Sequence record: OR896837.1
Reading direction: 5' to 3' (one strand)
Length of the DNA: 64,000 bases
Source of the DNA: Escherichia phage vB_Eco_mar004NP2
Positions within the stretch are counted from its first letter, which is position 1, and every line of letters starts with the position of its first letter. Below the pieces are notes generated by a model, which worked only from the letters and a program-made list of their open reading frames with translations, made no database searches and had not been told where the DNA came from. Below are positions 17,292 to 63,987 of the stretch, piece by piece. The translations under genes and the position numbers were made by a program.

Positions 17292-17445
17292 AAATTTTGG
17301 CAGGGGTAAAGGTATTCGAAAGCTTGGGCTTCAGAAGTAGCTCTGGCTAACCTATATCCTTTTTTATATTCATCAGGGTATTCTCTATCTTGAATAAACA
17401 CAACATAAACTATGTATAATTCCACTTGTAATCCCCTAATTAAGT

Positions 17446-17523
17446 TGGTGGCTCCCCGAGGATTCGAACCTACGTACCTTCCGGTTATGAGCCGGGTGCT
17501 CATACCATATGAGCTTGAGAACC
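17446..17523 (-). tRNA. tRNA with CAU anticodon (Met/Ile2), second copy
   Basis: Acceptor GGTTCTC/GGGAGCC + A + CCA; D-arm GCTCA/TGAGC; loop CTCATAA; weak T-stem. Confidence 0.5.
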
Positions 17524-17529
17524 AGAATT

Positions 17530-17619
17530 TGGCGGAAGAAGTGGGAATCGAACCCACAAGGCTATATTTCAAACCGACAGATTAGCAATCTGCTGCAATA
17601 CCGTTATGCTATTCTTCCG
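17530..17619 (-). tRNA. tRNA-Ser (anticodon GCU)
   Basis: Acceptor GGAAGAA/TTCTTCC + G + CCA; loop TTGCTAA; long variable arm; perfect T-arm GTGGG-TTCGATT-CCCAC. Confidence 0.65.
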
Positions 17620-17638
17620 AATTTATAAATATATTATA

Positions 17639-18157: not shown

Positions 18158-18254
18158 TATTTGATCCCCTAGTTAGTTGTATAAATACATTATACAGAAA
18201 AGCCCTGCGTTCTCCAGGAAACACAGGGCTTACTTCGAATATTACGCGTGGATA

Positions 18255-19203
18255 TTACTTATTACGCATATCCATAATCATCTGGCCATCGTAACCAGTG
18301 CCAACCACAGTCTGCGGTACACCACCTTGATACTTCTGAGCACGAATCATTTCAACTTCTAGTTGCTTCCAGCGAATCATCTCAGGAGTAATGGTACGTT
18401 GCAGCGCGGCGTTAGCTTCAGCTTCTTTCTTAGCTGCGTACAGTTTAGCATCTGCGTCGCGTTCGTTAGCAATAGCTTGGTTATTACGAGCTTCACGGTC
18501 TGCTTCTGCTTGTTTAACTTTCTGCTGAGCTTCTTGTTCAACGCGAGCCAGTTCAGCTTTTGCAGCATTAACTTGCTCTTCACGAACTTTGGTATTCTGT
18601 ACCTGTTCCATGATTACTGGTGGCAAAGTAATATCCTGAAGAAACATCTGCTTAACTGTGTAGCCATATGGGCGTGCATACTCTTCAACTTCCTGTTGAA
18701 TTGCAGTTTGCAATTGAGCCTGAATTTTAGCATCAAATAAATCTTGTGCTTTAGGTACAGACTTACCAAACTCACGAATAGTAGACAGTAATTTTTCAGT
18801 TACATATTTGTCTAATGCTTGATCCTGAGTACCTGCATTAATACGGTTAATCGGTGCCTTAGAACCATCAAACTGCAACATAACAGTCAGGTCAACAGTG
18901 GATTTAAACTTATCCTGGCTAGGAACCTGAAGTTTATCTAATTTTTACAGCAATATCTTTTGTACTAAAAGTATCGAAAGATGCAAATGGGTTTACAGGA
19001 TGGAAACCAGGTAATACTGGGTTAGGATCTACTTTACCAAGAAATGTTTGGGTTTTAACCGTACCATCAGAAACAATAGTATATGAATTAAAAGCTAGGA
19101 TTAAACCTGCTAAACCAACTACAGCACCAATCCCCCAACGTTTAATAGTACGAATTACTTTCTGCTCAGAAGTTAGTTCTTTCATATTTTTAGTATTAAA
19201 CAT
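18255..19203 (-). pseudogene. SPFH/band-7 membrane protein, reading frame interrupted (two ORFs, 18934..19203 and 18255..18881)
   Basis: Upstream ORF gives TM anchor plus first SPFH segment; downstream ORF gives the rest plus coiled coil; frames differ by +1 across an A5 run. Confidence 0.5.
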
Positions 19204-19237
19204 ATATTTCCTTTGTTTTAGTTACAGTTAATAAAAT

Positions 19238-19312
19238 TGGCCGAGGTGACAGGATTCGAACCTGCATAAAGGAATTTAGAAGACTCCTGCCTATCCCTTA
19301 GACTACACCCCG
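19238..19312 (-). tRNA. tRNA-Arg (anticodon UCU)
   Basis: Acceptor CGGGGTG/CACCTCG + G + CCA; anticodon arm GGAGT-CTTCTAA-ATTCC; T-arm GCAGG-TTCGAAT-CCTGT. Confidence 0.6.
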
Positions 19313-19814
19313 TTTAAGTATTTTTAAGAACTCTCGTAAAAACTCTTAAAAATACAGACGATACCGGGAGAGTCATAAGTCTCACTCATTAAGTATTTCA
19401 AGACAAAATACAGTAACGTCTATTATTTTCCAGTTTAAGTCAGGGTGACTTAGTGGTTATGTCCTGCGGTATATTGAGGACTCGGTTAGGCTTGGGGTCA
19501 TGACTTCCCACCTTTTGCTGCTACTCAACAGGAGTTATCGCGAATTACCTGTGCTATTGTGCACCATTAGTGACATCTCTCATGTCAGCATTTCCCACTT
19601 TGTGGATAGCTTGAAAAACTACTCCGATATGGAGAAAGAACTTCACTACCCTAGAATACCTTCTAAAGTTCTTCTTTAGCCTAGGCATAGTTAAATCGTA
19701 ATAAAACTATTCAGCAGACTGGTTGGTTAGTCTGGAACCAACTACCGCGTGGTTTAGGCAGTGCGCAACTAACCTCGGAAGCTTTTACGTTAAAAGCATC
19801 AGTTATCCAGTTCT

Positions 19815-19890
19815 TACCGACCGTAGGATTCGAACCTACATCTTCCACCAGTTACGGCTTGATAATACCAATTATACTAGGACGGCAGTG
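19815..19890 (-). ncRNA. tRNA-like element, possible tRNA pseudogene
   Basis: Perfect T-arm GTAGG-TTCGAAT-CCTAC and partial acceptor pairing; no anticodon stem could be folded; no CCA. Confidence 0.3.
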
Positions 19891-20161
19891 TTACTACATA
19901 AGTGATTTCCACACCCCACTATTTATAAATTAGAGAAGAGTTTAGGGGAGAGGTTTCAGACGCCTCATTTTACACGTTCTAGCCACTAACCGGGATTGCC
20001 GCCCCCTGTGTACTAGTTTTACAACTAACCCACCGACTCTATTCAACGAATCTTAGTGCTTGACGCATCTTACATTAAGACAAGTTCAGCGTAATCGGCT
20101 CGCTGTTCTCTAATTTATGAATATATTATACAGAATTTATAAGCATTTAGCAAATAAATTT

Positions 20162-20605
20162 TTAATTAAATTCGCCAGCAATCTGAGCAGCAGTACCACC
20201 ATCATAACGCCCAGGAAATTCTTCCTTAATCGCTTTCATTAGCATACCTTTTGTAATTCCAGGGTTTAGCTTAACTAATTCTGCAAAGTATTTACGAATC
20301 TCAGTATCAGATAACTGAGGAGGCAGATACTCCTGCAACCACTTATTTAGAATGTATTCATACTGAGCGGACTGCAAGCTATAACTATCAAGATCTTGAC
20401 CATGAAGTTTAGCTTTCATCTGGTTAATGCTTTTTAGTTGAGCTTTGAGATAAGACACAAATTGTTCAGAAGTGATGAAATCTTTATTAATACGCTGAAG
20501 ATCCCCGATTATGGTCTGATAGCTTTTAGCGACTTCTTTATCAGAACCATTAAACTTAGAATCCTGCAAAGCTCTACGCAAAACATCTAAAATATTCTCT
20601 TCCAT
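20162..20605 (-). CDS. GatB/YqeY-domain protein
   Basis: C-terminal GMLMKAIKEEFPGRYDGGTAAQI matches the YqeY/GatB C-terminal signature. Confidence 0.55.
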   Translation of the reverse strand: MEENILDVLRRALQDSKFNGSDKEVAKSYQTIIGDLQRINKDFITSEQFVSYLKAQLKSINQMKAKLHGQDLDSYSLQSAQYEYILNKWLQEYLPPQLSDTEIRKYFAELVKLNPGITKGMLMKAIKEEFPGRYDGGTAAQIAGEFN

Positions 20606-20843
20606 TATTTCATTCCTAACGCTTGGTTAAAAGATCGTTCTGTCATAACTGCTGAGACTTTGGCGAAATCAAACTTTTTAGGGTTCGTAGTGATCTCAGC
20701 AACGTTAGAAGTTTTAACAGTTTTCGTAGTACGAATACCGCGAGTGTTAACACCAATAATTACAACTGATTTCATATTTCGCTTCCTCTCATTAATTTAT
20801 GGAAGTATTATACTGAAATTTAAGTATTTAAGCAAGTAAATTT

Positions 20844-21311
20844 TTAAGTTTTAGTGACAACAGGTTTATAAAACGTATGTCCCTTAATCTTAGTTGTTTT
20901 CTTAAACTTCTTTGTCCAGTAAGGTTTATCTTTACCACTATGGAAGTATAGTGCTCCATGTGTAGGATCTTGTGGTAAATCAACGTAGTATATCACTCTA
21001 GCTAAATTCTTGGCGGTTTGCCAAGCCTCATCAGTTTTATCAACTTTTGGTCTCTTAGATACCCAAGAGAACTGGTTAGACTGATATACTACTTTACAGT
21101 AGGAATCTGGGAATTTACCGGAGTTTACACGGTTTTTAGTAACATGTGCAATCGCCGTCATTCCCTTTATGCCCTCACCACGACTTTCGAAATAGATATT
21201 TTTAGCAATGCAATCTATTTCTTTTGCATCGTGCGATGCCTGACTACTAAAGCTGAAGGTAAGGGCAGCTACTAAAAGCAAAGCTGCCTTCATTCTTTTT
21301 ACTCCTGCCAA
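20844..21311 (-). CDS. secreted cell-wall hydrolase (SleB-like)
   Basis: Signal peptide AALLLVAALTFSFSSQA; NIYFESRGE...VTKNR motif. Confidence 0.6.
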   Translation of the reverse strand: MAGVKRMKAALLLVAALTFSFSSQASHDAKEIDCIAKNIYFESRGEGIKGMTAIAHVTKNRVNSGKFPDSYCKVVYQSNQFSWVSKRPKVDKTDEAWQTAKNLARVIYYVDLPQDPTHGALYFHSGKDKPYWTKKFKKTTKIKGHTFYKPVVTKT

Positions 21312-21616
21312 TCATATTCAACACGATTGGGATTTTCTTTATACCCTAAGTCAAGCAAATCATTACGCATATTTTGCTTAGCTACTGGGTTCGAGGTTAC
21401 TAGTACCACTTTCTTTGGTCTCTGCCCAAATTCTAAGAGTAAACGAAGAATTTGATAACCTTCCATACCATCTACAGCCAAGTCATTATCCATATAAACG
21501 AAATGGCCTGTGGTATCAGTTTTATTCAGAAACTCTACAGCGGCTTCTGGGGTTCGAATGATAATGTCCATTCCATGAAGATTACGCACATCATCAATCA
21601 AAATATGAAAAGTCAT
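21299..21616 (-). CDS. hypothetical protein, possible receiver-like fold
   Basis: Weak resemblance only. Confidence 0.35.
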   Translation of the reverse strand: MTFHILIDDVRNLHGMDIIIRTPEAAVEFLNKTDTTGHFVYMDNDLAVDGMEGYQILRLLLEFGQRPKKVVLVTSNPVAKQNMRNDLLDLGYKENPNRVEYDWQE

Positions 21617-21802
21617 AATAGCCTCGTTTCATCAATTTAAAAATATATTATACATATAATTTAGTGGATTAGCAAATACATTTTTAAATTGTGAAACTAG
21701 TAAACCGATAAACAGCCTAGAGGCGCCACAGGCCATATCTTATGAGCCATGTACCTTTGATCTAGGGTTTGAATCATCAACGAATACTTTGCATCTTTTA
21801 GC

Positions 21803-21818
21803 TTTAGAAGTTTAGAAG
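21803..21818. repeat. tandem 8-mer TTTAGAAG x2 in a long non-coding spacer
   Basis: Direct reading of sequence. Confidence 0.8.
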
Positions 21819-22058
21819 TTTGAGTTCTTTAAACTTTTCAGCTTTCATACTTAAATGTTGATCTTTGAAGTTGTGTCGGTAATATCAACGACGCTTTGTT
21901 CTTACGTGTCAGCTTAAAAGGCTGGTGTAATAAACATAATCTCCAATAGATTATACTTTATAGTATGGTCAGCGGTCTTATTTAACCTCGTATTTCAACC
22001 GCTGCTGCGAGGTAAGATGCTTGGGCTTTCGTCTACCGATTTACTAGCTTTTAAATTA

Positions 22059-22697
22059 TTACTCTACTTCAATGAAGGTAGAGGCGTTAGACTCGGACAG
22101 AACAAAGTCAACATTTGTTGCAAAGTCCTGGTATTCCTCGTCATGCTGCTTAATCAGCTTCTCCAGTTCCAGCGGATCAATCAAGAATGGAGTATTCTTG
22201 AGTTCCAGCAGGTTGAGCTGCATTTTAACTTCATCTTCGGAAGTTTTCTTATCGCGGGTAGCCATGCTATCCTGCAAACGCTCATATTTAGCATCAAACT
22301 GTGCTTTCTGCGTATTAAATTTAACCGTAGCGGCATGGAACTGCTTACGCATGTTAGCCAGCAGTTGAGCTTTAAGCTCCATAGAACGCTTAGCTTCAAT
22401 TGCTTCCGCAACAGTCATCTTACGAGAGCCAATCTCAACTACTGTTTCCGCATTGCTCTTAATCAGAGCAGCTTTGATACGATCACGCTGAGACATCATA
22501 TCCAGCAGAGACTGGAAATCTGTCTTAATACGCTCAGATAAATCATCTACTTCGATTGCAGCGCCAACTACAACCTTATTTTTATCCTTACCTTCACCAA
22601 CAGCGATCAGAAGCTGTTGTTCAGTAGCTTTACGGATTTTAGCTTCCAGAGATTTGATAGTTGCTAGAGCGCGAGTTTTAGAGATACGAGTAGTCAT
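22059..22697 (-). CDS. hypothetical coiled-coil protein (212 aa)
   Basis: ORF. Confidence 0.5.
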   Translation of the reverse strand: MTTRISKTRALATIKSLEAKIRKATEQQLLIAVGEGKDKNKVVVGAAIEVDDLSERIKTDFQSLLDMMSQRDRIKAALIKSNAETVVEIGSRKMTVAEAIEAKRSMELKAQLLANMRKQFHAATVKFNTQKAQFDAKYERLQDSMATRDKKTSEDEVKMQLNLLELKNTPFLIDPLELEKLIKQHDEEYQDFATNVDFVLSESNASTFIEVE

Positions 22698-22750
22698 TAT
22701 TTGCTTCCTTATATGAAGTTTGAGATTTGAATTTGTTTAAATTTGGTCTA

Positions 22751-22933
22751 TTACAGACCAATTGCCAGCAGAGTGCGCAGAACAGTATCATTACTGTTAT
22801 CAATTTTAGGATTAGCACGATTTAGCAGATCAAAGATTTTCTGGATACCTGATTGACGTTCAGCCATACGACGGATACCCAGATTACGAGTAGCTTTCTT
22901 ACCATTTTTACGAACATTTTTAGATACTGGCAT
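22751..22933 (-). CDS. small basic protein (60 aa)
   Basis: Lys/Arg-rich N-terminus. Confidence 0.35.
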   Translation of the reverse strand: MPVSKNVRKNGKKATRNLGIRRMAERQSGIQKIFDLLNRANPKIDNSNDTVLRTLLAIGL

Positions 22934-23003
22934 ATTTGTTTTCCTTTTATTGTTTTCTCAAATTTATGAATATATTATACAGAATTTTGGAGCCGGAAGC
23001 AAA

Positions 23004-23705
23004 TCAAATTTTCATTTTTTCGATCATAGCTGCAACACAATAACTCTCAACTAGGGCATCGAATGCTGGGTCGTGCTTAACCGGATAGATCCCATAACGA
23101 ATGGTGTCCATCTTCTCCATTTTAGCTATTGCCCAGCTAATACCTTCGGTCTCTAGAGCCTTATAACTGTATCCAGCTTGCATCCAGAGATTACGAAGAG
23201 ATCGAACATTACCCAAATTCCAGAATTTCCATGGAACTACCTCTTCATTGGTTCCAGCATGGAACGTGTTTGCAGAGTAGATAGTCATATCAAACTCTGG
23301 GCCATTGCCATAATACAAAGCATTTTCGCCTAGAGCCAACTCCATAATATTTTGAGCCATAGAGAAGGCAGCATAGTTTGAGCCTAATTTATTAGTGCAA
23401 TGATGTTTACCATTTTGGAAGGCAATCAGTTTTGTATTACGTTCCTTCATAGCTTCCATAATGTGGATAGCAGATGGGCTATTTTTAGCTTGATCCATCC
23501 AGAATGCTAGAGTAGATGCTGTAACTTTGGCACCAGAATTAAGCTGATCCTGCACATCCAAAGTAACAAATACTAGATCAGGGTCTTTATCAACCCCATG
23601 CATAGCCACAAAAGCGAAAGAAGGCATTACGATATGAGTAGTACCACAATCTCCTGGAGTTCCTAGAGATTCAATATCTAGCATACCAAATGGTTTTACT
23701 TTCAT
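23004..23705 (-). CDS. DEDDh-type 3'-5' exonuclease
   Basis: N-terminal FGMLDIESLG (DxE) and C-terminal HDPAFD motifs. Confidence 0.55.
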   Translation of the reverse strand: MKVKPFGMLDIESLGTPGDCGTTHIVMPSFAFVAMHGVDKDPDLVFVTLDVQDQLNSGAKVTASTLAFWMDQAKNSPSAIHIMEAMKERNTKLIAFQNGKHHCTNKLGSNYAAFSMAQNIMELALGENALYYGNGPEFDMTIYSANTFHAGTNEEVVPWKFWNLGNVRSLRNLWMQAGYSYKALETEGISWAIAKMEKMDTIRYGIYPVKHDPAFDALVESYCVAAMIEKMKI

Positions 23706-23733
23706 AACTTATCCTTTACTGTGTAGAAAACTA

Positions 23734-23970
23734 TTAAAGAGCTGTCTCTTTAATAGACTCCCACTTCTTGGGGTCTTTAAAGCCAGGAAGCATATCCTCA
23801 CTGACATCCCAGTTCTCTTCCATAGAGAAGTCGGGCCATTCATTCCAGCTACCTTCCAGCTCTTCATAACAGGTGTCCATTACCTCATGACTAGAAAGTC
23901 GTGTATAATCTCTAGCGGACTTATGAGTGCTAGCACGGTTAAAATCATTCTTTGCTACAAAATTACGCAT
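23734..23970 (-). CDS. hypothetical acidic protein (78 aa)
   Basis: ORF. Confidence 0.4.
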   Translation of the reverse strand: MRNFVAKNDFNRASTHKSARDYTRLSSHEVMDTCYEELEGSWNEWPDFSMEENWDVSEDMLPGFKDPKKWESIKETAL

Positions 23971-24011
23971 AGTTTCTCCAAATAAGAGTGGCTTTCGCCC
24001 CCTGATTTAAA

Positions 24012-24227
24012 TCACTTGCCCAGCAGTTTAAGGATATTTTCCATAATAGTTTGGGCAGATTTTTCACTCTTGTTGGTTTCAGCCAACTTTAAAGCGAGTT
24101 CTTCCTGCTGTTTCTGAATATCCGCCGCAATTTTTTGATCAGCCTCAATACGAGCTTGAAGCTCATCAGTGATAGTGGTAAAGGAAGCAACGATTTCAGT
24201 AACGGAACGTGGTTTCTTAGAGAACAT
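24012..24227 (-). CDS. hypothetical protein (71 aa)
   Basis: ORF. Confidence 0.4.
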   Translation of the reverse strand: MFSKKPRSVTEIVASFTTITDELQARIEADQKIAADIQKQQEELALKLAETNKSEKSAQTIMENILKLLGK

Positions 24228-24291
24228 AAAAAATATCCTTGATTAGTTAGAGAATTAGTAGATTGTAGGGGCTTCTGCCCCTATTTATCTA

Positions 24292-24807
24292 TTACTTCGC
24301 TTTACGTTTACGAGCTGGTTTAGCAGATTTACGAGCAGAATCACCCGTGAACTTAATGCCTACACCGTAACATAGAGCACGAACATTATCTTTGCTATAC
24401 TCTACACCGAAGATATTTGGCTTAACAGAACCAAACTGTCCACGAGTATCACGAAATACATCTGCCGTTGGTTTGCGTTTCTGGTTAACTGCTTTCTCGT
24501 AATCTTTCATGGCCATGCCATTACGAGGGAACAATTCTGCTCCAGCATTGAAACTCAGTGCTACTGGAACAGATTTGTGACCATAACCCTGTACATAGGT
24601 CACAAGGCGGGCTACAGAACGAGTGGTATTCTTAGCCTTCGGCTTTTGACGAATCGAAGCCGGACGATTCAGTGCCTGTGCAGCTTGAGCATCAGTAGGG
24701 TGCTTGCGCAGGTGGCGTTCCAGACGAGCTTTGCGGTTAGCCTCAGTCTGAGGGAAAGTTTTAACTGCCGGGGCTGCTTGAGTTTTTGCGTTTTTCTGCT
24801 TAGCCAT
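24292..24807 (-). CDS. basic, probably nucleic-acid-binding protein (171 aa)
   Basis: Lys/Arg-rich termini. Confidence 0.45.
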   Translation of the reverse strand: MAKQKNAKTQAAPAVKTFPQTEANRKARLERHLRKHPTDAQAAQALNRPASIRQKPKAKNTTRSVARLVTYVQGYGHKSVPVALSFNAGAELFPRNGMAMKDYEKAVNQKRKPTADVFRDTRGQFGSVKPNIFGVEYSKDNVRALCYGVGIKFTGDSARKSAKPARKRKAK

Positions 24808-24890
24808 TATTTATTTTCCTTTTTGTTTATCAATTTATGAAGTATATTATACGAGAATTTGAAGCGTTTAGCAAATGAATTTTTTAAAAA

Positions 24891-25169
24891 TTATCTACCA
24901 ACCATCTTGGCTTGTTCTGCATCGGAAACATATTGATACGCTCCTTTATTATATGCTGGAGCAGTACACATTTTCTTACGCTCAATCTCTTCTTGAGCTT
25001 TTCTTTCGCGTTCAGCTAATTCTTCATCCAGATAAACTAAACGTTGTTCCGGAGGAGGTGGAAGACGTGTTTCTGGCTCACCAATATTAGCCTTTCTTAT
25101 TTGACGAGGTGATTGTGCACGTTTTCTCAACGGTTTAAATCCTAATGAATTTGAGTTATAAATTCTCAT
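24891..25169 (-). CDS. hypothetical protein (92 aa)
   Basis: ORF. Confidence 0.4.
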   Translation of the reverse strand: MRIYNSNSLGFKPLRKRAQSPRQIRKANIGEPETRLPPPPEQRLVYLDEELAERERKAQEEIERKKMCTAPAYNKGAYQYVSDAEQAKMVGR

Positions 25170-25246
25170 AAAGCCCTCCTCACTTTCAATACGAATATTA
25201 TACTAAATTAGAGGGCTTTAAGCAAGAAAATTTTTTAATTTATTTA

Positions 25247-46246: not shown

Positions 46247-46264
46247 TCTGGTAAATTAAACCTA

Positions 46265-46297
46265 AGGGGAGGGGGCTATGCTCCTTCCCCTTTTTTG
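46265..46297 (+). terminator. rho-independent terminator
   Basis: GGGGAGGGGG...CCTTCCCC hairpin + TTTTTT. Confidence 0.5.
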
Positions 46298-46329
46298 CAT
46301 TTAGAAGGCACGAAAGCGTGCAAAGGAGA

Positions 46330-47802
46330 ATGACCTTGTTTAACGTGCAAGCTGTAGTGTTGAAGATGCTTCTTGCTTCTGAACAGAAGCAAATAGCATT
46401 GGAAACATTCTCAAAACTGCATAAAGATCATTTTAATGACGCTTTCTCCTCAATTTACCAAGCCGTCCAGAATTATTATAAAAAATATAACACAATGCCG
46501 TCCATTGACGCACTTATGCTTGAAGCTAATAGGAACGCCCGCCTTTCTCAAGCTCTAGTCGTCTTAGCTAACACTCAAATTCCAGAAGTGAGCATGGAAC
46601 AGGCACTTGAAGTCCTAGAGGCCGAATATACACAAGATTTATTCCTAAAGCTTCTAGAAACAGATGTGCTTCAAGATTTAACAATGCTGGATCAGGGAGA
46701 AATTCTCAACCGAGTTGCCTCCCTTCACTTAAAATTAGAAGAGAAAGTAACGAATACTGGAAAAGTATTCAACGCAGATAACATGCGTATTTTCCAGAGA
46801 GAAGAAGATACCAAACTGAACTTAATCGCTCTTGGTATTTGTAATGAGTTCGACGCTCAAATTGGTTTAGCTCGCACAGAAACGTTACTGCTTGGTGGTT
46901 GGCGTGGTACTGGTAAATCCATTATCTGTTCAAACATACAGGTTCAGCAATATTTGAATGGAGATATTGCTCCATACTTCTCAATTGAGATGAAAGAACA
47001 TGAAGTATTTAGACGTAATCTAGCCATGTTAGCTGGTGTATCAGCATTAGCAATGCGTAATAATACTCTAGAAGGTGCAGCTCTGTTGAGATTGGCCAGA
47101 ACTAGAGCTAGGATGTTCAACGGGGGTGAGGAGCTTTTCGATAACTTCGTTAAACAGTATACAATGGCTAAGATGAGTGATTTCTACGATATGGAGAGTA
47201 AGCTAATAGAAGGATATGAGCTACATACTCCTATGATTATTGTTTATGACCCTGAGCTGTCCATTACAACAGTTGACGTAGAATTAAATAAATTAGTTGC
47301 TAGATACGGAGATAAAGTTACAGTAGCTTTACTGGACTATATTAACCAAACCCGACTTCCAGACTCTAAAACCATTGATATGTATGACTGGAAAGAACAG
47401 ATGGTTGTCAGCTCGTCTTTCAAATCTATCTGCCAGAAACATAACGTGGCTGGTGTAGCTCCTTACCAGATTGATCAAGATGGTAGAACACGTATGTCAA
47501 AGGGGATTCTTGATTCCGCAGACATGGCTGCTAATCTTAATGCTGCAAAAGCTGATAATGGTCAAGGTGCTATTATGTTTGACTTCGTTAAGACCCGTTC
47601 TTCTGATAGCGTGAAGTTTATGCCTAAAATGAACTGGGAAACCCTGCGGATGGATAACACTATCAACCTAGCAATGGAAGATATATCTCAAATGGAAGCT
47701 GAGTTCGTTATCCCTATTGAGAAGGATAAGCCGGCTCAATCTAAACGTGCTAAGAAAGACAAAGCTGAAAATTCAACAGGTGAACAGGCCAGCGATATAT
47801 GA
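46330..47802 (+). CDS. RecA-fold replicative helicase-like ATPase (DnaB-like)
   Basis: Walker A GGWRGTGKS; directly upstream of and coupled to the primase; start uncertain (ATG 46330 or TTG 46336). Confidence 0.5.
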   Translation: MTLFNVQAVVLKMLLASEQKQIALETFSKLHKDHFNDAFSSIYQAVQNYYKKYNTMPSIDALMLEANRNARLSQALVVLANTQIPEVSMEQALEVLEAEYTQDLFLKLLETDVLQDLTMLDQGEILNRVASLHLKLEEKVTNTGKVFNADNMRIFQREEDTKLNLIALGICNEFDAQIGLARTETLLLGGWRGTGKSIICSNIQVQQYLNGDIAPYFSIEMKEHEVFRRNLAMLAGVSALAMRNNTLEGAALLRLARTRARMFNGGEELFDNFVKQYTMAKMSDFYDMESKLIEGYELHTPMIIVYDPELSITTVDVELNKLVARYGDKVTVALLDYINQTRLPDSKTIDMYDWKEQMVVSSSFKSICQKHNVAGVAPYQIDQDGRTRMSKGILDSADMAANLNAAKADNGQGAIMFDFVKTRSSDSVKFMPKMNWETLRMDNTINLAMEDISQMEAEFVIPIEKDKPAQSKRAKKDKAENSTGEQASDI

Positions 47803-57653: not shown

Positions 57654-58136
57654 ATGGCTGTAGATAGTAGAGAGAAAGGTAAACGTGGTGAATATCAGGT
57701 AAGAGATATTCTACGCGAGCGTACAGGTCTTGAGTGGGAACGTGTTCCTGGCTCTGGTGCTTTTGGCCAGAGCCACGGACTGAAAGGTGACATCTACCTT
57801 CCACCACAAAGCGGACACATTAGTAAATACTGCTTCGAAGTTAAGTGGTATAAAGATGATAATATATCAAGTAATTTATTTAATGTCGGTGAATCCACTC
57901 TAGAGAAGTGGTGGCAGCAATGCTCACGTGAAGGTGAGCAGATGAACTCCAAGTCTGCATTAATATTCAAAAAAGACAGAGGACAGTGGTTAATAGCTTT
58001 GGATAGCGCAGACCCGATGGTTGACAACTTAATGAGTCGTACCCATATGGTGTTAAATAAGAAAGACATGGAAATCGTAATTGGTTTATTTGAACCGTGG
58101 CTACATCATGCATCTGTTGAGGACTTAATTAAATAA
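57654..58136 (+). CDS. PD-(D/E)xK-type nuclease-like protein (resolvase-like)
   Basis: GDIY...EVK motif pattern; position between SbcC-like gene and flap endonuclease. Confidence 0.4.
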   Translation: MAVDSREKGKRGEYQVRDILRERTGLEWERVPGSGAFGQSHGLKGDIYLPPQSGHISKYCFEVKWYKDDNISSNLFNVGESTLEKWWQQCSREGEQMNSKSALIFKKDRGQWLIALDSADPMVDNLMSRTHMVLNKKDMEIVIGLFEPWLHHASVEDLIK

Positions 58137-59011
58137 TGAGTAAATCCTGGGGAAAATTTATTGAAGAAGAGGAAGCTGAAATGGCTTCCCGTCGTAACCT
58201 AATGATTGTTGATGGAACTAACTTAGGCTTCCGCTTCAAACATAACAATAGTAAAAAACCATTTGCCTCAAGTTATGTTTCCACTATTCAGTCTCTAGCA
58301 AAATCTTATTCTGCTAGAACTACAATAGTTTTAGGGGATAAAGGAAAGTCTGCATTCCGCCTAGAGCATCTTCCAGAGTATAAAGGGAATCGAGATGAGA
58401 AATACTCTCAGCGTACGGAAGAGGAAAAAGCGTTAGATGAGCAGTTTTTCGAGTATTTGAAAGATGCTTTCGAACTATGTGAAACTACATTCCCAACCTT
58501 CACTATTCGTGGTGTAGAAGCAGATGATATGGCAGCTTATATTGTTAAGCTGATTGGGCATCTATATGATCATGTTTGGCTAATTTCTACCGATGGTGAC
58601 TGGGATACTTTATTAACTGATAAAGTTTCTCGCTTCTCTTTTACAACACGTCGTGAATATCATCTTCGTGATATGTATGAGCACCATAATGTTGACGATG
58701 TAGAGCAGTTTATCTCTCTGAAAGCAATTATGGGTGATTTAGGGGATAATATCCGTGGTGTTGAAGGTATTGGGGCAAAACGCGGGTATAATATTATTCG
58801 TGAATTTGGTAACGTTCTGGATATTATTGATCAGCTTCCACTACCTGGAAAACAGAAATATATACAGAATTTAAATGCTTCGGAAGAATTGCTTTATCGA
58901 AACCTAATTTTAGTTGATTTACCTACCTACTGTGTGGACGCTATTGCTGCTGTAGGTCAAGATGTATTAGATAAGTTTACAAAAGATATTTTGGAGATTG
59001 CAGAACAATGA
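58136..59011 (+). CDS. 5'-3' exonuclease / flap endonuclease
   Basis: FEN signatures MIVDGTNLGFR, EADD, STDGD, GD.GDN.RGVEGIG. Confidence 0.85.
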   Translation: MSKSWGKFIEEEEAEMASRRNLMIVDGTNLGFRFKHNNSKKPFASSYVSTIQSLAKSYSARTTIVLGDKGKSAFRLEHLPEYKGNRDEKYSQRTEEEKALDEQFFEYLKDAFELCETTFPTFTIRGVEADDMAAYIVKLIGHLYDHVWLISTDGDWDTLLTDKVSRFSFTTRREYHLRDMYEHHNVDDVEQFISLKAIMGDLGDNIRGVEGIGAKRGYNIIREFGNVLDIIDQLPLPGKQKYIQNLNASEELLYRNLILVDLPTYCVDAIAAVGQDVLDKFTKDILEIAEQ

Positions 59012-59454
59012 TTAAAATTAAATTAACTCATCCAGATTGTATGCCTAAGATTGGTTCCGAAGATGCCGCAGGTATGGATCTGCGAGCATTCTTTGGTACA
59101 AACCCTGCTGCAGATTTACGTGCTATTGCGCCAGGCAAATCCCTAATGATTGACACCGGTGTCGCGGTAGAAATTCCGCGAGGTTGGTTCGGTTTGGTGG
59201 TTCCTCGTAGCTCTTTAGGTAAGCGCTATTTGATGATTGCAAACACCGCAGGGGTGATCGACTCAGACTATCGTGGTACTATTAAGATGAACCTCTATAA
59301 TTACGGTTCTGAAATGCAAACTCTGGAGAATTTCGAGAGACTTTGTCAGCTAGTGGTATTGCCACATTACTCAACTCATAATTTTGAAATCGTTGATGAG
59401 TTAGAAGAGACTGTACGTGGAGAAGGAGGATTTGGAAGTTCAGGAAGTAAGTAA
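59008..59454 (+). CDS. dut: dUTPase
   Basis: Motifs AGMDLRA, GVIDSDYRG, GGFGSSG. Confidence 0.9.
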   Translation: MIKIKLTHPDCMPKIGSEDAAGMDLRAFFGTNPAADLRAIAPGKSLMIDTGVAVEIPRGWFGLVVPRSSLGKRYLMIANTAGVIDSDYRGTIKMNLYNYGSEMQTLENFERLCQLVVLPHYSTHNFEIVDELEETVRGEGGFGSSGSK

Positions 59455-59478
59455 TCTACATATAAAATAAATAATAAA

Positions 59479-59513
59479 CCCCAGTGGATTTTGTCCACTG
59501 GGATTTTCTTTTA
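59479..59513. terminator. bidirectional rho-independent terminator between early and late genes
   Basis: CCCAGTGGA-TTTTG-TCCACTGGG hairpin flanked by A-rich and T-rich runs. Confidence 0.65.
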
Positions 59514-61283
59514 TTGTGATACTAATTGTACCTTTAATTGCTCAAGCTCTTTCTCTAGATCTTCAATCCGTTTAATAAGATCTTGCACAACATGCATAGT
59601 GTCAAGAAGCATTGGAGTTGTATCTAATTCCTTTTGCTCCTGCTCTATTCCGTCATCATTATAAAATTTTCTAGTTTTTACATAAAGTGGTTCTATAGTC
59701 TCTACTTGCTGAGCAATAACCCCACGTCGGACACGAGATTTTTCATCGTTATTATATACAAAGGATTGGAATTCTAATCCTTTTAATACCTCGATGGACT
59801 TAGTTGCGTCTATAGCCTTAATATCATGCTTTAAGCGAGAATCAGATACAGCATTTAATTGCAAAGTATAGGTTGCTGAAGCACCTGGCCACCAAGAATA
59901 AAAATAAATACTATTATTATTCGGCTGAATTTTTAAACGCACACCAAATTTATTATCATCATCTCCCGCTACCTGCCAACAAGAATCTGCAAATGAGCCT
60001 AAGTCATTATGAATTAATCCAAAATGTGCAGATGTCTTATACCCTGCGGAAGAAGACTGGGAACCGCTCAATATACTATTAAAGTTAAATGTACTACCTA
60101 TATTGACCTCGTTCTGAGAAAGAGTACCTTGTACCCAGCCAGTCTGAGACCACGCCATGCCAGTAACTAATCTAGCTTTAAAACGATCCGTTACAAAATC
60201 CCCATTTATCTACAAGCTGGGCGGAATTCGATTTACCGGTAGATTTATTGTCTATTAGTAGTTCAGTAGAGTAGGTGCCACCAATAGTAGCTTTAGCTCG
60301 TAGTGTACTTACAGCCTCACTACTAGTACCTACTTTATACTCAGATAGTACACTCCCGCCATAAACAGTAGTACCAGTATTAGGTTTGACAGCATCACCA
60401 CTAATAACACTCCACGAAGTCTTTGCAGCCACGAACCCACCAGAAGCACGGATTACCCAGACACCTATAAAGCTGTTTGGAATAATAGTACCTTTTATTC
60501 CATAACGCCCATAAACAGGGTCCGCTAAGTTTGCATCAAAACTAAATCCGTATTGGTTATCAGGATTAACTACGGCGAATGATTTAGATGCACCTCCAGG
60601 AGCGGCACCTAAGCCGTTTTCACCACCAATCGCCCCAATAAGACCAAATCTAGATGAATATCTATTAAGCGCTTCTTCATATGCACCAGCAATAGCGCCA
60701 GGAAAACTACCAGTAATATTGGGTGCTGCAGCTTCTGATATTGAACCAGCTTGACCAGCATCCCCCCCCCCCCCACCGTCACCACGAGCGAATAACCCTT
60801 TGATTGAATTTAGTTGCACACCATTACGATCTGGGACGCGGAAAGTAGTGGTACCATCTCCCGTAGAATATTTCCCACGTTGTCCTACATCTGCTAACCA
60901 AACTGAATCATCTATAGCTCCAACCATTTGTGCATACGCCCAAAGTTCAGGCCAGTCAGCCCTGTTAAGAAGCTGCCCATCAGAAACTACCTCATAAGGT
61001 TGAATATACGCACGGCTATCTCGAAGATGAAAATCCCCACCCCGTAGTTCATAACACCATTCATTGTGGGTCCTACTGTGCCAGTATTAAGTTTGTTCTC
61101 CACCCAACGCTTAGTTGCGGCATCATAGTCACTAACAGGATCTCCAGCAAGAGGGGTAGATCCAATAGGACGCACATTTAGCCATGCTGCACGGTCTGCT
61201 AAGTCACTCAGGTTATTATTTTTATTAAGTGACTCATTTTTAAGTTTTGTAATATCCGTAGGAATTACTGTTTTAGTTACCAT
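59511..61283 (-). pseudogene. tail fiber protein with C-terminal intramolecular chaperone/autoprotease domain, split into three ORFs by two frame breaks
   Basis: N-terminus MVTKTVIP...PLAGDPVSDYDAATKRWV; open frame continues in another phase (HNEWCYELRGGDF...); C-terminal ORF carries the SDSRLK autocleavage-type motif. Confidence 0.55.
60762..60774. repeat. 13-nt C/G homopolymer inside the tail fiber coding sequence
   Basis: Read directly; encodes the Gly run GDGGGGGD on the minus strand. Confidence 0.9.
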
Positions 61284-61292
61284 TATAAAACC

Positions 61293-61571
61293 TTATGCCC
61301 ATACTCTAAGAGGCTGTTCTAGCTGAACTATAAAAGGCTCGAAGGATTCGTAAGTAAAGGATTCATCAAGAATCCTTACATTAATATAATACCCTTCATT
61401 ACGGATGCATCTAGGTTCCTCATCACCTAGCGGAGAGATTTCAGTATAAGTATATCCAATTTCGTCAAGCATTATTTGGTTTTGCAAATTTTCATTAGTA
61501 TCCCACTCTATTTTTAAGAGAAAATCTTTATATGCTGATTTATCCGTGAATTTTAGGATTATATCTCTCAT
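61293..61571 (-). CDS. hypothetical small protein between the two fiber genes
   Basis: ATGA overlap with upstream fiber gene stop. Confidence 0.4.
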   Translation of the reverse strand: MRDIILKFTDKSAYKDFLLKIEWDTNENLQNQIMLDEIGYTYTEISPLGDEEPRCIRNEGYYINVRILDESFTYESFEPFIVQLEQPLRVWA

Positions 61572-63625
61572 ACATACTCCTTCATTTGTCTATCAGTTAG
61601 TTCCTTATGCCAGATTCTAAAGTTTCTAACGTGCCCGAAAAGATGACGTTCGCCCCTAGTTGTTTGTCCTCCAATCCTTATAGTAGCCGTTGATTGTATG
61701 TATCTCCATTCCGTTTTTGTTTCGCTTGATATTCTGGCATTACTTACACAGCAAGTATTGTAATCACTCTTTACTCTCATTCCCATGATCATCTTTTTTA
61801 GTTTTGCATTCTCGTAAACCCTTCTGTTTGATTTACCTATATCGCAATAAGGGAAACCATCATTATCGCCTTCGGCAGATCCGAAAGCAAGAATAATAGC
61901 CGCTTCGGTTTGATGACCTCTGGTATCAAAAACACGTGGCGCTGCACTTGGCGTTATACTCCAGTTTTTATGAGCTTCCACAAGTACTGTAAACGGCAAA
62001 TTGTAAAGGTTGTTTTTTATTGGTAATGTGACCATATCGCTTGCCCGTGTTACTGGAGTCTCTTCTGTAATAATAAACGATGAAGCGCACGCCCCGCCTT
62101 CAACTTGAGGGGTAGCTACCTGTAAGTACTCTCCACCAGAATAAGTGCCAGGTGAAACAGGTGGAGCAATTTGGATCTGAGAGCTAACCATATTATCAAT
62201 AGCTTCAGATTGATATGTAACCTCGAAATAAATCCATCCATTAGATTCTTTCTCCGCTCGGGCGGTTATTCTTGCAGCCCCTACTTCCGTTTTTCTAATG
62301 GACATATCTGTTATATTAAGATATGCATCTGCTAGATAAAAATATGCGGATCCGTCATATCTTTCAAATCTTATACGACATTGTATATTAGCACTATCGC
62401 TTTTTACACGACATGATGTTGTAACATACTTTTCAGTTCCGGTAACATCGACACCTCTTCCTCCTGAAATCGCAGCGATATTCATTGCCGTATTTGTCCC
62501 AATTTTTTCGTCCTTTATTTGAAACCGCCCATAAGTAAATCCAAACTCATCAACACCACTTTCTGTTATAGTTACACTTGTTGTAGCTTCCCACTTAGAT
62601 GGCGTAAGTGAGTTAAGATGATAGTTAGTTCTTTGCCCCTCAATGAGCAAACCATCCTTTTCAAATCTAGGTTCATTAATCCCCGCAACAGTTAATACAC
62701 CTGATTTATTAATATATGTCGCAGTTGATGCACGTGTAAAGCTAACAATCTTGTCACTGGGCAGTGTTATTTCCTCATCACCGACTGTTATTTTTTTTTT
62801 ATAGTCTGGCGCAAAGCCGGTGATCATATCTAGAGAATCGTTAAACGGTATCCATACATCTGGAAGAGGTTGAATGTCGGGGGTAGAATTAGCAGCAGCT
62901 TCTGATCTATCAGCCTCAGTTTTTGAACGATCGGCTTCAGTTTTAGCAGTATTAGCACTATTAGCAGCATTAGTAGCTTGTTTTCCTGCTTCAGTAGCAG
63001 AATTAGCAGCACTAGTTGCAGAATTAGCAGCTTGGTTTTTTAGCGTGGTAGTTTCTGTTATCGCGCTATTCTTAATGCCTTGTGTGTCTGTTTTTAACTG
63101 CGCAACATCTGCCTTTATAGCTGTTGTCTCTGTTACAGCACTGTTTTTAATGGCCTGAGTATCTGATTTTAGCTGCTCAACATCTGATTTTAAGCCTTGA
63201 ATAGTAGTTACTGACTGACTAGCTGAAGTTGCGGAACTAGCTGCGTTATTCTCACTAGCTTTGGCTTTAGTCTCACTAGCTTTGGCTTTAGTCTCACTAG
63301 CTTTTGCATTAGTCTCGGATACTTTAGCAGCGGATGCAGATGTTGCAGCTTGTCTAGCGAATGTTTCTGCTTCATCCCTAAAACCTTTAGAATTGGCAGC
63401 AGACGCAGCAGCATTAGTCTCACTAATTTTAGCGTTAGTTTCGCTAATTTTTGCAGCCGCAGCAGATTTAGCAGCAGCCTCTATAGAAGATACTAACTCA
63501 TTAGCAGTAATAGAGCTAATAGAATTTCCAAGAGTTACTGTGTATCTAGGAAATTTACTAGCAGTAGCTTTAGTATCATCAATATTTAATATTTGTTGTA
63601 CAATAATCTTAGTAGTTATTGCCAT
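61568..63625 (-). CDS. L-shaped/side tail fiber protein (685 aa)
   Basis: N-terminus [18 protein letters not shown]..., repetitive SETNAKASETKAKASE coiled-coil repeats typical of side tail fibers. Confidence 0.7.
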   Translation of the reverse strand: MAITTKIIVQQILNIDDTKATASKFPRYTVTLGNSISSITANELVSSIEAAAKSAAAAKISETNAKISETNAAASAANSKGFRDEAETFARQAATSASAAKVSETNAKASETKAKASETKAKASENNAASSATSASQSVTTIQGLKSDVEQLKSDTQAIKNSAVTETTAIKADVAQLKTDTQGIKNSAITETTTLKNQAANSATSAANSATEAGKQATNAANSANTAKTEADRSKTEADRSEAAANSTPDIQPLPDVWIPFNDSLDMITGFAPDYKKKITVGDEEITLPSDKIVSFTRASTATYINKSGVLTVAGINEPRFEKDGLLIEGQRTNYHLNSLTPSKWEATTSVTITESGVDEFGFTYGRFQIKDEKIGTNTAMNIAAISGGRGVDVTGTEKYVTTSCRVKSDSANIQCRIRFERYDGSAYFYLADAYLNITDMSIRKTEVGAARITARAEKESNGWIYFEVTYQSEAIDNMVSSQIQIAPPVSPGTYSGGEYLQVATPQVEGGACASSFIITEETPVTRASDMVTLPIKNNLYNLPFTVLVEAHKNWSITPSAAPRVFDTRGHQTEAAIILAFGSAEGDNDGFPYCDIGKSNRRVYENAKLKKMIMGMRVKSDYNTCCVSNARISSETKTEWRYIQSTATIRIGGQTTRGERHLFGHVRNFRIWHKELTDRQMKEYV
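62791..62800. repeat. 10-nt T/A homopolymer inside the tail fiber coding sequence
   Basis: Read directly; encodes KKK on the minus strand. Confidence 0.9.
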
Positions 63626-63987
63626 TATCTAGTTACCCCATCACTGATAAATACTTTACCCTCCATTATACGAAAAGAGCTAATAGCTGATCCTATGACA
63701 TCTCGTGTCATAATTATATCATAGTATCCTGCAAAACGTTGGCGAGGGTTATACTTATCTCTCTCTTTGGTAGCTTTTTCACCAATATTATCTACCGCCT
63801 CTACAGGTAAACTTATAGCTATAGCACCTTGAGCAGCATCAATAATTTTAGTAGTAAAAGATGCCAAAGTTTCCGCGTTCTCATCAAGCCCCGCCTTTAT
63901 AGTACCCCTTAGGGAATACCCTGTTAAGTTAACAGGGGTATTTGTAGGTGGATAAGTACTATCATCAACATCTAAGAATTGCATCAT
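63625..63987 (-). CDS. hypothetical late (virion-associated?) protein, possibly truncated by window end
   Basis: ORF directly upstream of the fiber gene; its 5' end lies within 13 bp of the window edge. Confidence 0.35.

What the first reader, a model, noticed from the sequence alone, without database searches (positions are those of the whole stretch)
61060..61086. First tail-fiber frame break lies in a short window containing a C3/G3 run
The 98-aa frame stops at 60987, while the -1 frame is open from a TAA near 61087 and encodes HNEWCYELRGGDFHLRD. The switch must occur between about 61060 and 61086, which includes GGG at 61068..61070; one extra C on the coding strand would fuse the frames.
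Basis: seen in the sequence. Interest (0 to 1): 0.45.

Follow-up and report, generated by a model that had tools for sequence, protein, structure and literature searches.

The report
Frameshifted side tail-fibre gene, break mislocated

Summary
The frame break is real but mislocated. The window is a Tequintavirus (T5-like) genome, 99.3-99.7% identical to phages SPLA5b, PMBT29 and mar004NP2. The minus-strand gene at 61283..59511 is their intact 589-590-aa ltfB-like tail fibre. In the window it carries four length changes:
- loss of one GCA (61185..61190), in frame
- G5 to G4 on the coding strand (plus-strand CCCC at 61035..61038), which is the true first break
- a poly-G tract of 13 (60762..60774) against 6, 7 or 10 in relatives, in frame
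- AA to AAA (60205..60207), the second break

Two contigs of an independent read-based (Logan) assembly of SRR27112525 are 100% identical to the window over 17.5 kb and contain all three frameshifts found in the window. Single-base indels avoid coding DNA (3 of 7 against 92% coding, P~0.001), and only two accessory genes are broken. The best reading is therefore a genuine replication-slippage mutation inactivating a dispensable fibre, in a phage that also shows tRNA-region deletions. A sequencing artefact remains possible (~0.2). This is ordinary and of low interest. The hypervariable G13 tract is the only mildly notable item.

The parts
59511..61283 (-). ltfB-like second lateral tail-fibre gene, 1773 nt, here split into 98-, 249- and 215-aa ORFs. 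With two single-base repairs it encodes a 590-aa protein.
   Evidence: Intact 589-590-aa CDS in SPLA5b, mar004NP2, PMBT29 and JLBYU40. The repaired product matches phrog_6921 end to end (E=2e-178). Residues 31-352 are 59% identical to DT571/2 LtfB.
61035..61038 (-). TRUE first frame break: a G4 run on the coding strand (CCCC on the plus strand) where close relatives have G5.
   Evidence: Alignments. Seven relatives have GGGGTGGGGGA and four more have GGTGT(T/A)GGTGA of the same length. Only the window and the Logan contig are one base shorter.
61060..61086 (-). There is no lesion here; it encodes native residues ~66-75 (...NTGTVGPTM...) in the start frame.
   Evidence: No difference from the five closest relatives across this interval (one search lists every differing column).
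60987..61283 (-). Truncated 98-aa ORF: 83 native N-terminal residues plus a 15-residue out-of-frame tail (IFIFEIAVRIFNLMR), ending in TAG.
61185..61190 (-). GCA repeat with 2 copies against 3 in 10 relatives (an 11th has GCAGCAGCG, same length); this in-frame change loses one Ala.
60762..60774 (-). Poly-G tract of 13 on the coding strand, encoding Gly5. It is in frame here. Alleles are 6, 7 and 10 in near-identical phages.
   Evidence: It is the only G/C run of 6 or more in the 64-kb window.
60205..60207 (-). Second frame break: AAA on the coding strand where relatives have AA (GAT AAT GGG becomes GAT AAA TGG G).
60178..60927 (-). 249-aa ORF, the largest ATG-started piece of the out-of-register middle segment. 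The native middle segment runs from 61034 to 60208. There is no Shine-Dalgarno sequence upstream.
59511..60158 (-). 215-aa ORF covering the C-terminal part. It is back in the start frame, but cut off from translation by the upstream stop.
59688..59846 (-). Peptidase_S74 intramolecular chaperone domain (SDSRLKHDIKAI...).
   Evidence: Pfam PF13884, E=3.4e-12, residues 480-532 of the repaired protein. Also flagged on the Logan gene call.
61293..61571 (-). Conserved 92-aa ORF between the two fibre genes, function unknown.
   Evidence: phrog_1361, E=2e-32. Present in all relatives.
61568..63625 (-). ltfA-like fibre gene, 685 aa, with a T5 Ltf/LtfA-type N-terminus. It is 111 aa shorter than in the relatives.
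   Evidence: phrog_1419, E=3e-237. N-terminus matches DT571/2 LtfA. 796 aa in SPLA5b and PMBT29.
63625..63987 (-). ltfC (fibre attachment protein). The gene runs off the end of the window.
   Evidence: 83% identical to DT571/2 LtfC residues 21-140.

Best explanation
The window is a T5-like (Tequintavirus) phage. Its second lateral tail-fibre gene (ltfB-like, 61283..59511, minus strand) has been inactivated by two genuine single-base slippage mutations. The first is loss of one G from a G5 run (61035..61038). It moves the ribosome out of frame after residue 83 and terminates translation 15 codons later, at the TAG at 60989..60987. The second is gain of one A (AA to AAA, 60205..60207). It happens to return the distal part to the original frame, but cannot rescue it because of the intervening stops.

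Shown: the position and nature of each lesion, the intact state in all relatives, and the reproduction of the lesions in an independent read-based assembly.

Inferred: the lesions arose by replication slippage. They persist because this fibre branch, which in the experimentally studied LtfA/LtfB phages recognises an O-antigen, is dispensable on permissive or rough hosts. The virion therefore lacks a functional LtfB branch. The same genome shows other losses in dispensable regions, which fits relaxed selection, for example during propagation on a permissive host.
For: 1. Base-level alignment against 11 relatives fixes the lesions at 61035..61038 and 60205..60207. All relatives have an uninterrupted 574-590-aa ORF.
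2. Two further public contigs, one IMG/VR and one ENA gut metagenome, carry the G5 allele.
3. Logan contigs of SRR27112525 are 100% identical to window 57987..63274 and 12934..25203. They contain the G4 run, the G13 tract, the AAA, the third frameshift at 18946 and the tRNA-region deletion junctions. So the lesions are not an artefact of one assembler or of polishing.
4. Of about 105 ORFs of 90 aa or more shared with SPLA5b or PMBT29, only this gene and one 315-aa 'lipoprotein' gene are frame-broken. All replication genes are intact.
5. Only 3 of 7 single-base indels lie in coding DNA, against 92% coding density (P~0.001). This is the signature of variants filtered by selection, not of random error.
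6. The other length changes in the fibre locus are all multiples of three (-3, +6, +3, +3), which random error would not produce.
7. Published genetics: ltfB-null DT571/2 grows normally on laboratory and rough strains, and ltf lesions accumulated during passage on C600 (PMC4728585). The mar004NP2 orthologue is called ltfB (PMC6563131).
8. The same genome lacks about 7.8 kb of the tRNA region (5 tRNAs against 21 annotated in SPLA5b) and 111 aa of LtfA.
Against: - No reads were inspected, and the sequencing platform of SRR27112525 is unknown to me. If the window and the Logan contigs come from the same reads, a systematic homopolymer miscall would be reproduced by both.
- Both breaks are in homopolymers, the classic site of sequencing error.
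- Two independent inactivating hits in one 1.8-kb gene is somewhat unusual for a recent loss.
- Other deposited relatives also show breaks in this gene (KS_S14 at the poly-G tract, VSe12 near residues 41-51). That could equally mean the gene is hard to sequence.
- The predicted phenotype (no LtfB branch) is untested.
Confidence: 0.7

Rival explanations
1. Sequencing or consensus artefact: the real phage has an intact 590-aa gene, and the G4 and AAA runs are homopolymer miscalls carried into both assemblies.
For: Both frame breaks sit in homopolymer runs. The window and the Logan contigs probably derive from the same read set, so they are not independent at the read level. Frameshift errors in deposited T5-group fibre-locus sequences are documented; the DT57C structure paper notes one in T5 ltfC (PMC10713586). 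KS_S14 and VSe12 also show breaks in this gene.
Against: - The window has 622 A/T runs of 4-5 nt, 35 of 6 nt, and 132 G/C runs of 4-5 nt, yet only three frame-breaking indels in 64 kb, all in two accessory genes.
- Single-base indels are depleted from coding DNA (P~0.001). Random error would hit coding DNA about 92% of the time.
- A k=31 de Bruijn assembly gave 5.5- and 24.9-kb contigs with zero differences from the window, which points to accurate reads. For such reads a G4/G5 or A2/A3 consensus error is very unlikely.
- AA to AAA is hardly a homopolymer-error context.
Confidence: 0.2
2. Contingency-locus (phase-variable) control: homopolymer tracts in this fibre gene (G13, G4/5) slip at high frequency, so the phage population is a mixture of LtfB-ON and LtfB-OFF genomes. 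This would be a bet-hedging device for host range, and the assembly happened to capture an OFF majority.
For: - The poly-G tract has four different lengths (6, 7, 10, 13) among genomes that are more than 99% identical, including one out-of-frame allele.
- It is the only G/C run of 6 or more in 64 kb.
- Precedent: Fletchervirus G7-11 tracts in receptor-binding proteins, and homopolymer contingency loci of 6 bp or more in T2 and T4 (PMC12633550).
- A -1 slip on the G4 run would regenerate exactly the wild-type peptide (inference from the sequence).
Against: - The two actual breaks are in a G4 and an A3 run, far below lengths known to slip at high rates (6 bp or more in PMC12633550).
- The long G13 tract is in frame here.
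- Two separate OFF lesions are not how a reversible switch behaves.
- Three of the four poly-G alleles differ by multiples of three, which suggests selection to keep the frame rather than to toggle it.
- The preprint reports that homopolymers are under-represented in tail-fibre genes of coliphages (PMC12633550, section 8).
Confidence: 0.07
3. Programmed ribosomal frameshifting or another recoding event joins the frames during translation, so the gene is functional as written.
For: The G_GGG context would allow a P-site tRNA-Gly to re-pair in the -1 frame and give the native sequence at break 1 (inference from the sequence).
Against: - There is no X_XXY_YYZ heptamer at the site.
- The 100 nt downstream fold less stably than shuffled controls (z=+1.37).
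- All relatives encode the protein in one frame.
- A second shift of opposite sign would be needed 830 nt later, at GAT AAA TGG, which is not a known +1 site.
Confidence: 0.01
4. One reading: the break is a missing C (coding strand) in the C3/G3 run at 61068..61070.
For: Inserting a base there does mechanically fuse the two open frames.
Against: That run and its flanks are identical in the five closest relatives, which are intact there. The resulting peptide, PHNEWCYELRGG, replaces the conserved PTMNGVMNYGVG seen in all homologues. A one-base deficit is directly visible at 61035..61038 instead.
Confidence: 0.01

Closest known systems
Intact orthologues in Salmonella phage SPLA5b (WNT48387.1), Escherichia phage vB_Eco_mar004NP2 (MAR004NP2_00162, orf135) and Salmonella phage PMBT29 (XCD29680.1)
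   Same: 99.3-99.4% nucleotide identity over the whole locus, with the same gene order: ltfC, ltfA-like, 92-aa ORF, this gene, then dut on the opposite strand. MAR004NP2_00162 is described as the ltfB orthologue (PMC6563131).
   Different: In those phages the ORF is uninterrupted (589-590 aa). The window has G4 instead of G5, AAA instead of AA, one GCA fewer, and G13 instead of G7 or G10.
LtfB of T5-like phages DT57C and DT571/2 (branched lateral tail fibre; Golomidova et al. 2016, PMC4728585)
   Same: Same position in the ltf locus. Residues 31-352 are 59% identical to LtfB residues 187-496. Both have a C-terminal S74-type chaperone. ltfB-null mutants are viable on laboratory and rough hosts, which explains why a broken copy can persist.
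   Different: DT571/2 LtfB is 767 aa, and its first ~186 residues, including the phiEco32 gp15-like docking segment, have no counterpart here. The distal half of the window protein resembles DT571/2 LtfA (42% identity over residues 524-1039) at least as much as LtfB. The upstream partner (685 aa) shares only its N-terminus with DT LtfA.
Laboratory-selected ltf lesions, such as the DT530(1) ltfA-ltfB deletion after passage on E. coli C600 (PMC4728585)
   Same: Loss of lateral-fibre function in a T5-like phage without loss of viability. The window genome also has an in-frame deletion in the ltfA repeat region.
   Different: Here the lesions are two point frameshifts rather than a recombinational deletion. 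The propagation history of this phage is unknown.
Hypermutable poly-G tracts in receptor-binding genes of Campylobacter Fletchervirus phages, and homopolymer contingency loci of T2 and T4 (as summarised in PMC12633550)
   Same: A long G tract (13) inside a receptor-binding fibre gene whose length differs among near-identical genomes, with one out-of-frame allele (KS_S14).
   Different: The frame breaks in question are not in that tract. No within-population heterogeneity or reversibility has been shown, and most alleles differ by multiples of three.

Membership tests
LtfB-type second lateral tail fibre of T5-like phages | The gene lies immediately downstream of ltfC and ltfA, and is convergent with dut. 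| tested here: met
   The order is ltfC (63625..63987+), ltfA-like (61568..63625), 92-aa ORF, this gene, then dut on the opposite strand (59008..59454). DT571/2 has the same order apart from the 92-aa ORF.
LtfB-type second lateral tail fibre of T5-like phages | Sequence homology to experimentally defined LtfB. | tested here: met
   BLASTP gives 59% identity over 329 residues (E=7e-118) to DT571/2 LtfB residues 187-496. The near-identical mar004NP2 protein is called an ltfB orthologue in PMC6563131.
LtfB-type second lateral tail fibre of T5-like phages | N-terminal phiEco32 gp15-like segment (~45 aa) proposed to dock LtfB onto LtfA. | tested here: not met
   No alignment between the first 30 residues here and DT571/2 LtfB residues 1-186. 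Direct comparison with phiEco32 gp15 was not done. The docking mode of this shorter protein is therefore unknown.
LtfB-type second lateral tail fibre of T5-like phages | C-terminal intramolecular chaperone (Peptidase_S74) with an autocleavage motif. | tested here: met
   PF13884, E=3.4e-12, residues 480-532, motif SDSRLK.
LtfB-type second lateral tail fibre of T5-like phages | Attached to the virion through LtfA, and recognises a distinct O-antigen. | not testable with these tools
   Needs electron microscopy, genetics and host-range assays.
Programmed -1 ribosomal frameshift site | Slippery heptamer X_XXY_YYZ in the zero frame. | tested here: not met
   The zero-frame codons at the site are GTG GGG ATT TTC, which contain no such heptamer.
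Programmed -1 ribosomal frameshift site | Stable stimulatory structure a few nucleotides downstream. | tested here: not met
   MFE -21.5 kcal/mol against a shuffle mean of -25.8, z=+1.37.
Programmed -1 ribosomal frameshift site | The two-frame arrangement is conserved in relatives. | tested here: not met
   All 11 relatives examined are single-frame at this site.
Phage contingency locus (hypermutable homopolymer; PMC12633550) | Homopolymer of 6 bp or more within the coding sequence at the switching site. | tested here: not met
   Break 1 is a G4/G5 run and break 2 an A2/A3 run. The G13 tract at 60762..60774 does meet the criterion but is in frame here.
Phage contingency locus (hypermutable homopolymer; PMC12633550) | Tract length varies among very close relatives, including out-of-frame alleles. 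| tested here: inconclusive
   The poly-G tract shows 6, 7, 10 and 13 across genomes more than 99% identical. Only one allele (6, in KS_S14) is out of frame. At break 1, only the window differs.
Phage contingency locus (hypermutable homopolymer; PMC12633550) | Within-population length heterogeneity and reversibility. | not testable with these tools
   Requires read-level data or fluctuation assays.
Homopolymer sequencing artefact | The errors are scattered over homopolymers regardless of coding status or gene essentiality. | tested here: not met
   3 of 7 single-base indels are in coding DNA against 92% coding density (P~0.001). Only two accessory genes out of about 105 are broken.
Homopolymer sequencing artefact | The lesion is not reproduced by an independent assembly of reads. 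| tested here: not met
   Logan contigs of SRR27112525 are 100% identical across all three frameshifts.
Homopolymer sequencing artefact | Read pile-up shows mixed or low-quality support at the run. | not testable with these tools
   There is no access to reads.

The most novel reading that the evidence does not exclude
The ltfB-like fibre gene of this phage clade is a contingency locus. Slippage-prone G tracts (G13 at 60762..60774, with help from the G4/G5 runs at 61035..61043) switch the second fibre branch on and off, or vary a Gly linker. This would give mixed virion populations that hedge between O-antigen-bearing and rough hosts, and the window captures an OFF state.
Probability: 0.07. 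Interest if true: 0.55.

Novelty: already known. Interest (0 to 1): 0.12.

Why it matters
The main value is practical.
- **Annotation:** the three ORFs at 59511..61283 should be annotated as one disrupted (pseudo) ltfB-like gene. The break point for any repair or read check is 61035..61038 (plus 60205..60207), not 61068..61070.
- **Host range:** if the lesions are real, the phage is predicted to lack one receptor-binding branch and so to have a narrower host range on O-antigen-bearing strains than its near-identical relatives SPLA5b, PMBT29 and mar004NP2. That matters if it is considered for typing or therapy.
- **Biology:** it adds one more example of lateral-fibre loss in T5-like phages, which is already well documented. 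The variable G6/7/10/13 tract is a modest lead for work on phage contingency loci.

Tried and rejected
rejected by alignment with the five closest relatives (allele table) and by the peptide its repair would create.
- **The other G4 run (61040..61043):** rejected as the mutated run. It has four G in both the window and the relatives.
- **Programmed frameshifting:** no slippery heptamer, no downstream structure, and the arrangement is not conserved.
- **Independent translation of the 249- and 215-aa ORFs:** neither has a Shine-Dalgarno sequence upstream, and both are internal pieces of a conserved single ORF.
- **Other carriers of the G4 allele:** scans of IMG/VR and of the metagenome collection found only G5. 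The exact 98-aa and 215-aa products exist only in SRR27112525. The 249-aa product was not indexed, although the same contig shows it.
- **Identifying SRR27112525:** a literature search found nothing.
- **Indel at 46296:** it first looked like a break in the replicative helicase, but it lies in a terminator T-tract upstream of the real AAGGAG-ATG start.
- **Pfam:** no hit for a collar or receptor-binding domain in the middle segment at E<=0.01. Only S74 was found.
- **Not used:** I did not run the large protein searches or structure prediction, because DNA-level comparison with intact near-identical genes answered the question.

Full report
**What the window is.** The ORFs around the finding are a flap endonuclease (58136..59011) and a dUTPase (59008..59454) on the plus strand, facing a block of fibre genes on the minus strand. 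Megablast shows the window is a Tequintavirus. It is 99.3-99.7% identical to Salmonella phages SPLA5b and PMBT29 and to Escherichia phage vB_Eco_mar004NP2 over 25-kb stretches.

**Checking the observation.**
- The 98-aa minus-strand ORF ends at 60987 with a TAG.
- The adjacent frame opens after a TAA at 61089..61087 and reads HNEWCYELRGGDFHLRD.
- GGG is at 61068..61070.

The inference is not correct. The two frames are both open over 97 nt (61086..60990), and sequence alone cannot place the switch within that zone. The zone holds four homopolymer runs. A G3/C3 run occurs in 24.5% of all 27-nt intervals of this window, so its presence carries no information.

**Where the break really is.** In SPLA5b, mar004NP2, PMBT29, JLBYU40, IrisVonRoten, Baret, T5_ev219 and phC17, the region homologous to 61283..59511 is one uninterrupted CDS of 574-590 aa, annotated as a tail fibre protein. 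A base-level alignment shows four length differences in the window:
1. GCAGCAGCA becomes GCAGCA (61185..61190), in frame.
2. GGGGT-GGGGG-A becomes GGGGT-GGGG-A, a lost G in the run that is plus-strand CCCC at 61035..61038.
3. The poly-G tract has 13 G (60762..60774), against 10 in SPLA5b, 7 in most relatives and 6 in KS_S14. It is in frame in the window.
4. GAT AAT GGG becomes GAT AAA TGG G (60205..60207), a +1 insertion.

Differences 2 and 4 are the two frame breaks. Extending the allele table to 11 relatives plus one IMG/VR contig and one gut-metagenome contig gives the same answer. Every sequence except the window and one Logan contig has the full length at site 2. More divergent relatives spell it GGT GTT GGT GAT, with no homopolymer.

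The native protein therefore reads ...GPTMNGVMNYGVG|DFHLRDSRAY.... The CCC/GGG at 61068..61070 is identical in the five closest relatives. The module around the junction (residues ~27-119) is conserved in tail fibres of 248 phage records.

**What the gene is.** With the two single-base repairs, the gene encodes a 590-aa protein.
- It matches phrog_6921 'tail fiber protein' end to end (E=2e-178).
- It carries a C-terminal Peptidase_S74 intramolecular chaperone domain (PF13884, E=3e-12).
- Residues 31-352 are 59% identical to DT571/2 LtfB residues 187-496, and residues 12-586 are 42% identical to the distal half of DT571/2 LtfA.

The locus order (ltfC, ltfA-like 685 aa, conserved 92-aa ORF, this gene, then dut on the opposite strand) matches the ltfC-ltfA-ltfB-dut order of DT571/2. 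The mar004NP2 orthologue is explicitly called an ltfB orthologue (PMC6563131). One feature of DT-type LtfB is not present: the long N-terminal segment that contains the phiEco32 gp15-like docking motif. This protein starts about 186 residues 'later'. I therefore call it ltfB-like by position and partial homology rather than a strict LtfB.

**Real mutation or artefact?** Several results bear on this.
- A look-up of the exact 98-aa product found a single public contig, Logan SRR27112525_10. It is 100% identical to window 57987..63274 and includes the G4 run, the G13 tract and the AAA.
- A second contig of the same run (24.9 kb) is 100% identical to window 12934..25203. It includes the window's third frameshift and three deletion junctions. 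The lesions are thus reproduced by an independent k-mer assembly from reads, though probably the same reads.
- Genome-wide, the window has only about a dozen small indels against both SPLA5b and PMBT29.
- Of about 105 shared ORFs of 90 aa or more, only this fibre gene and a 315-aa 'lipoprotein' gene are frame-broken. Polymerase, helicases, primase, ligase, the ribonucleotide reductases and the rest are intact.
- Of seven single-base indels, only three lie in coding DNA although 92% of the region is coding (P~0.001). The one that seemed to hit the replicative helicase is in a terminator T-tract upstream of the true AAGGAG-ATG start.
- Four of the twelve small indels fall in this 1.77-kb gene (P=2e-4). 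All the non-disruptive length changes in the fibre locus are multiples of three.

This pattern is what selection-filtered real variation looks like, not random homopolymer error. I cannot see reads or the platform, so a systematic miscall remains possible. I put it at about 0.2.

**Mechanism and consequence.** The likeliest history is replication slippage at short runs (inferred). Translation from the ATG at 61283 gives 83 native residues plus 15 aberrant ones and then stops at the TAG at 60989..60987 (shown). The middle segment and the S74 chaperone are not translated.
- The internal ATGs at 60927 and 60158 have no Shine-Dalgarno sequence.
- Programmed recoding is excluded as far as sequence can show. 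There is no slippery heptamer, no downstream structure (z=+1.37), no conservation of the split, and a second shift of opposite sign would be needed.

Published genetics on DT571/2 shows that an ltfB-null phage grows normally on laboratory and rough strains but loses O-antigen-protected hosts. It also shows that ltf lesions accumulate on passage in C600 (PMC4728585), and that lateral fibres are not needed on rough hosts (PMC10713586). The window genome has other signs of loss in dispensable regions:
- about 7.8 kb missing from the tRNA region, leaving 5 tRNAs against 21 annotated in SPLA5b
- a 111-aa in-frame loss in the ltfA repeat region
- the broken 315-aa gene

**Comparison with what is known, and novelty.** Nothing here is new in kind. 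This is a known fibre gene, intact in near-identical deposited genomes, carrying ordinary frameshift lesions. Broken copies at other homopolymers also occur in KS_S14 (G6) and VSe12 (near residues 41-51).

The only mildly interesting element is the G tract, with lengths 6, 7, 10 and 13 among genomes more than 99% identical. It is the only G/C run of 6 or more in the 64-kb window. It formally meets the 6-bp criterion for putative phage contingency loci and recalls the Fletchervirus poly-G tracts in receptor-binding proteins (PMC12633550). However, it is in frame here and mostly varies by triplets. I give the contingency reading about 0.07.

**Verdict.** The true first break is at 61035..61038. 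Interest is low.

Noticed in passing
window 60762..60774: C13 on the plus strand (G13 on the coding strand, encoding Gly5), inside the ltfB-like gene. It is the only G/C homopolymer of 6 or more in the 64-kb window. Tract length is 6 (KS_S14, out of frame), 7 (mar004NP2, PMBT29, phC17, one IMG/VR and one ENA contig), 10 (SPLA5b) and 13 (window) in otherwise near-identical genes. It is a candidate hypermutable tract.
   Followed up: partly
window 60205..60207: Second frame break of the same gene: AAA where all relatives have AA. It returns the distal 215-aa part (with the S74 chaperone) to the start frame but cannot rescue translation.
   Followed up: yes
window 62791..62800: T10 (A10 on the coding strand) in the ltfA-like gene, 3 nt longer than in SPLA5b and PMBT29. 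It is the only A/T run of 8 or more in the window. There is a further +3 (TTT) insertion at about 63467.
   Followed up: partly
window 63427..63478 (gene 61568..63625): The ltfA-like gene is 685 aa against 796 aa in SPLA5b and PMBT29. It has a 339-nt in-frame loss between 52-nt direct repeats in the Ala/Ser/Lys-rich N-terminal repeat region. The Logan contig ends inside this repeat, so the junction is not independently confirmed.
   Followed up: partly
window ~15729..17325: About 7.8 kb of the tRNA region present in SPLA5b and PMBT29 is missing, in three blocks. The junctions are at 15729-15762 (34-nt overlap), 17213-17226 and 17321-17325. Only 5 tRNA genes remain, against 21 annotated in SPLA5b. 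The junctions are reproduced in Logan contig SRR27112525_1. This recalls deletion mutants of T5's dispensable tRNA region (from my own knowledge).
   Followed up: partly
window 18255..19203 (minus strand): A 315-aa gene annotated 'lipoprotein' in SPLA5b is split into 89-aa and 208-aa ORFs by a T4 to T5 insertion at about 18942..18946. It is the only other frame-broken gene in the window, and the break is also present in the Logan contig.
   Followed up: partly
window 46255..46330: A T5 to T6 difference lies in the T-tract of a terminator-like hairpin (GGGGAGG...CCTTCCCC), just upstream of an AAGGAG-spaced ATG. The DnaB-like helicase start annotated in SPLA5b (MLLPLF...) is probably an over-extension; the real start is MTLFNV....
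   Followed up: partly
L020 (Salmonella phage VSe12, MN022787.1 81000-84000) and L003 (KS_S14): Two other deposited T5-like genomes carry frame-broken copies of this same fibre gene at different homopolymers. VSe12 is broken near residues 41-51 in a C5/G5-rich stretch, and KS_S14 at the poly-G tract (G6).
   Followed up: partly
window 12896..12903: SPLA5b has about 0.54 kb here (the HNH endonuclease region) that is absent from both the window and PMBT29. This is probably a mobile homing-endonuclease presence/absence polymorphism.
   Followed up: no
window 61293..61571: A conserved 92-aa ORF of unknown function (phrog_1361) always sits between the ltfA-like and ltfB-like genes in this clade. 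It is absent from the DT571/2 locus and could be a fibre assembly or adaptor factor.
   Followed up: no
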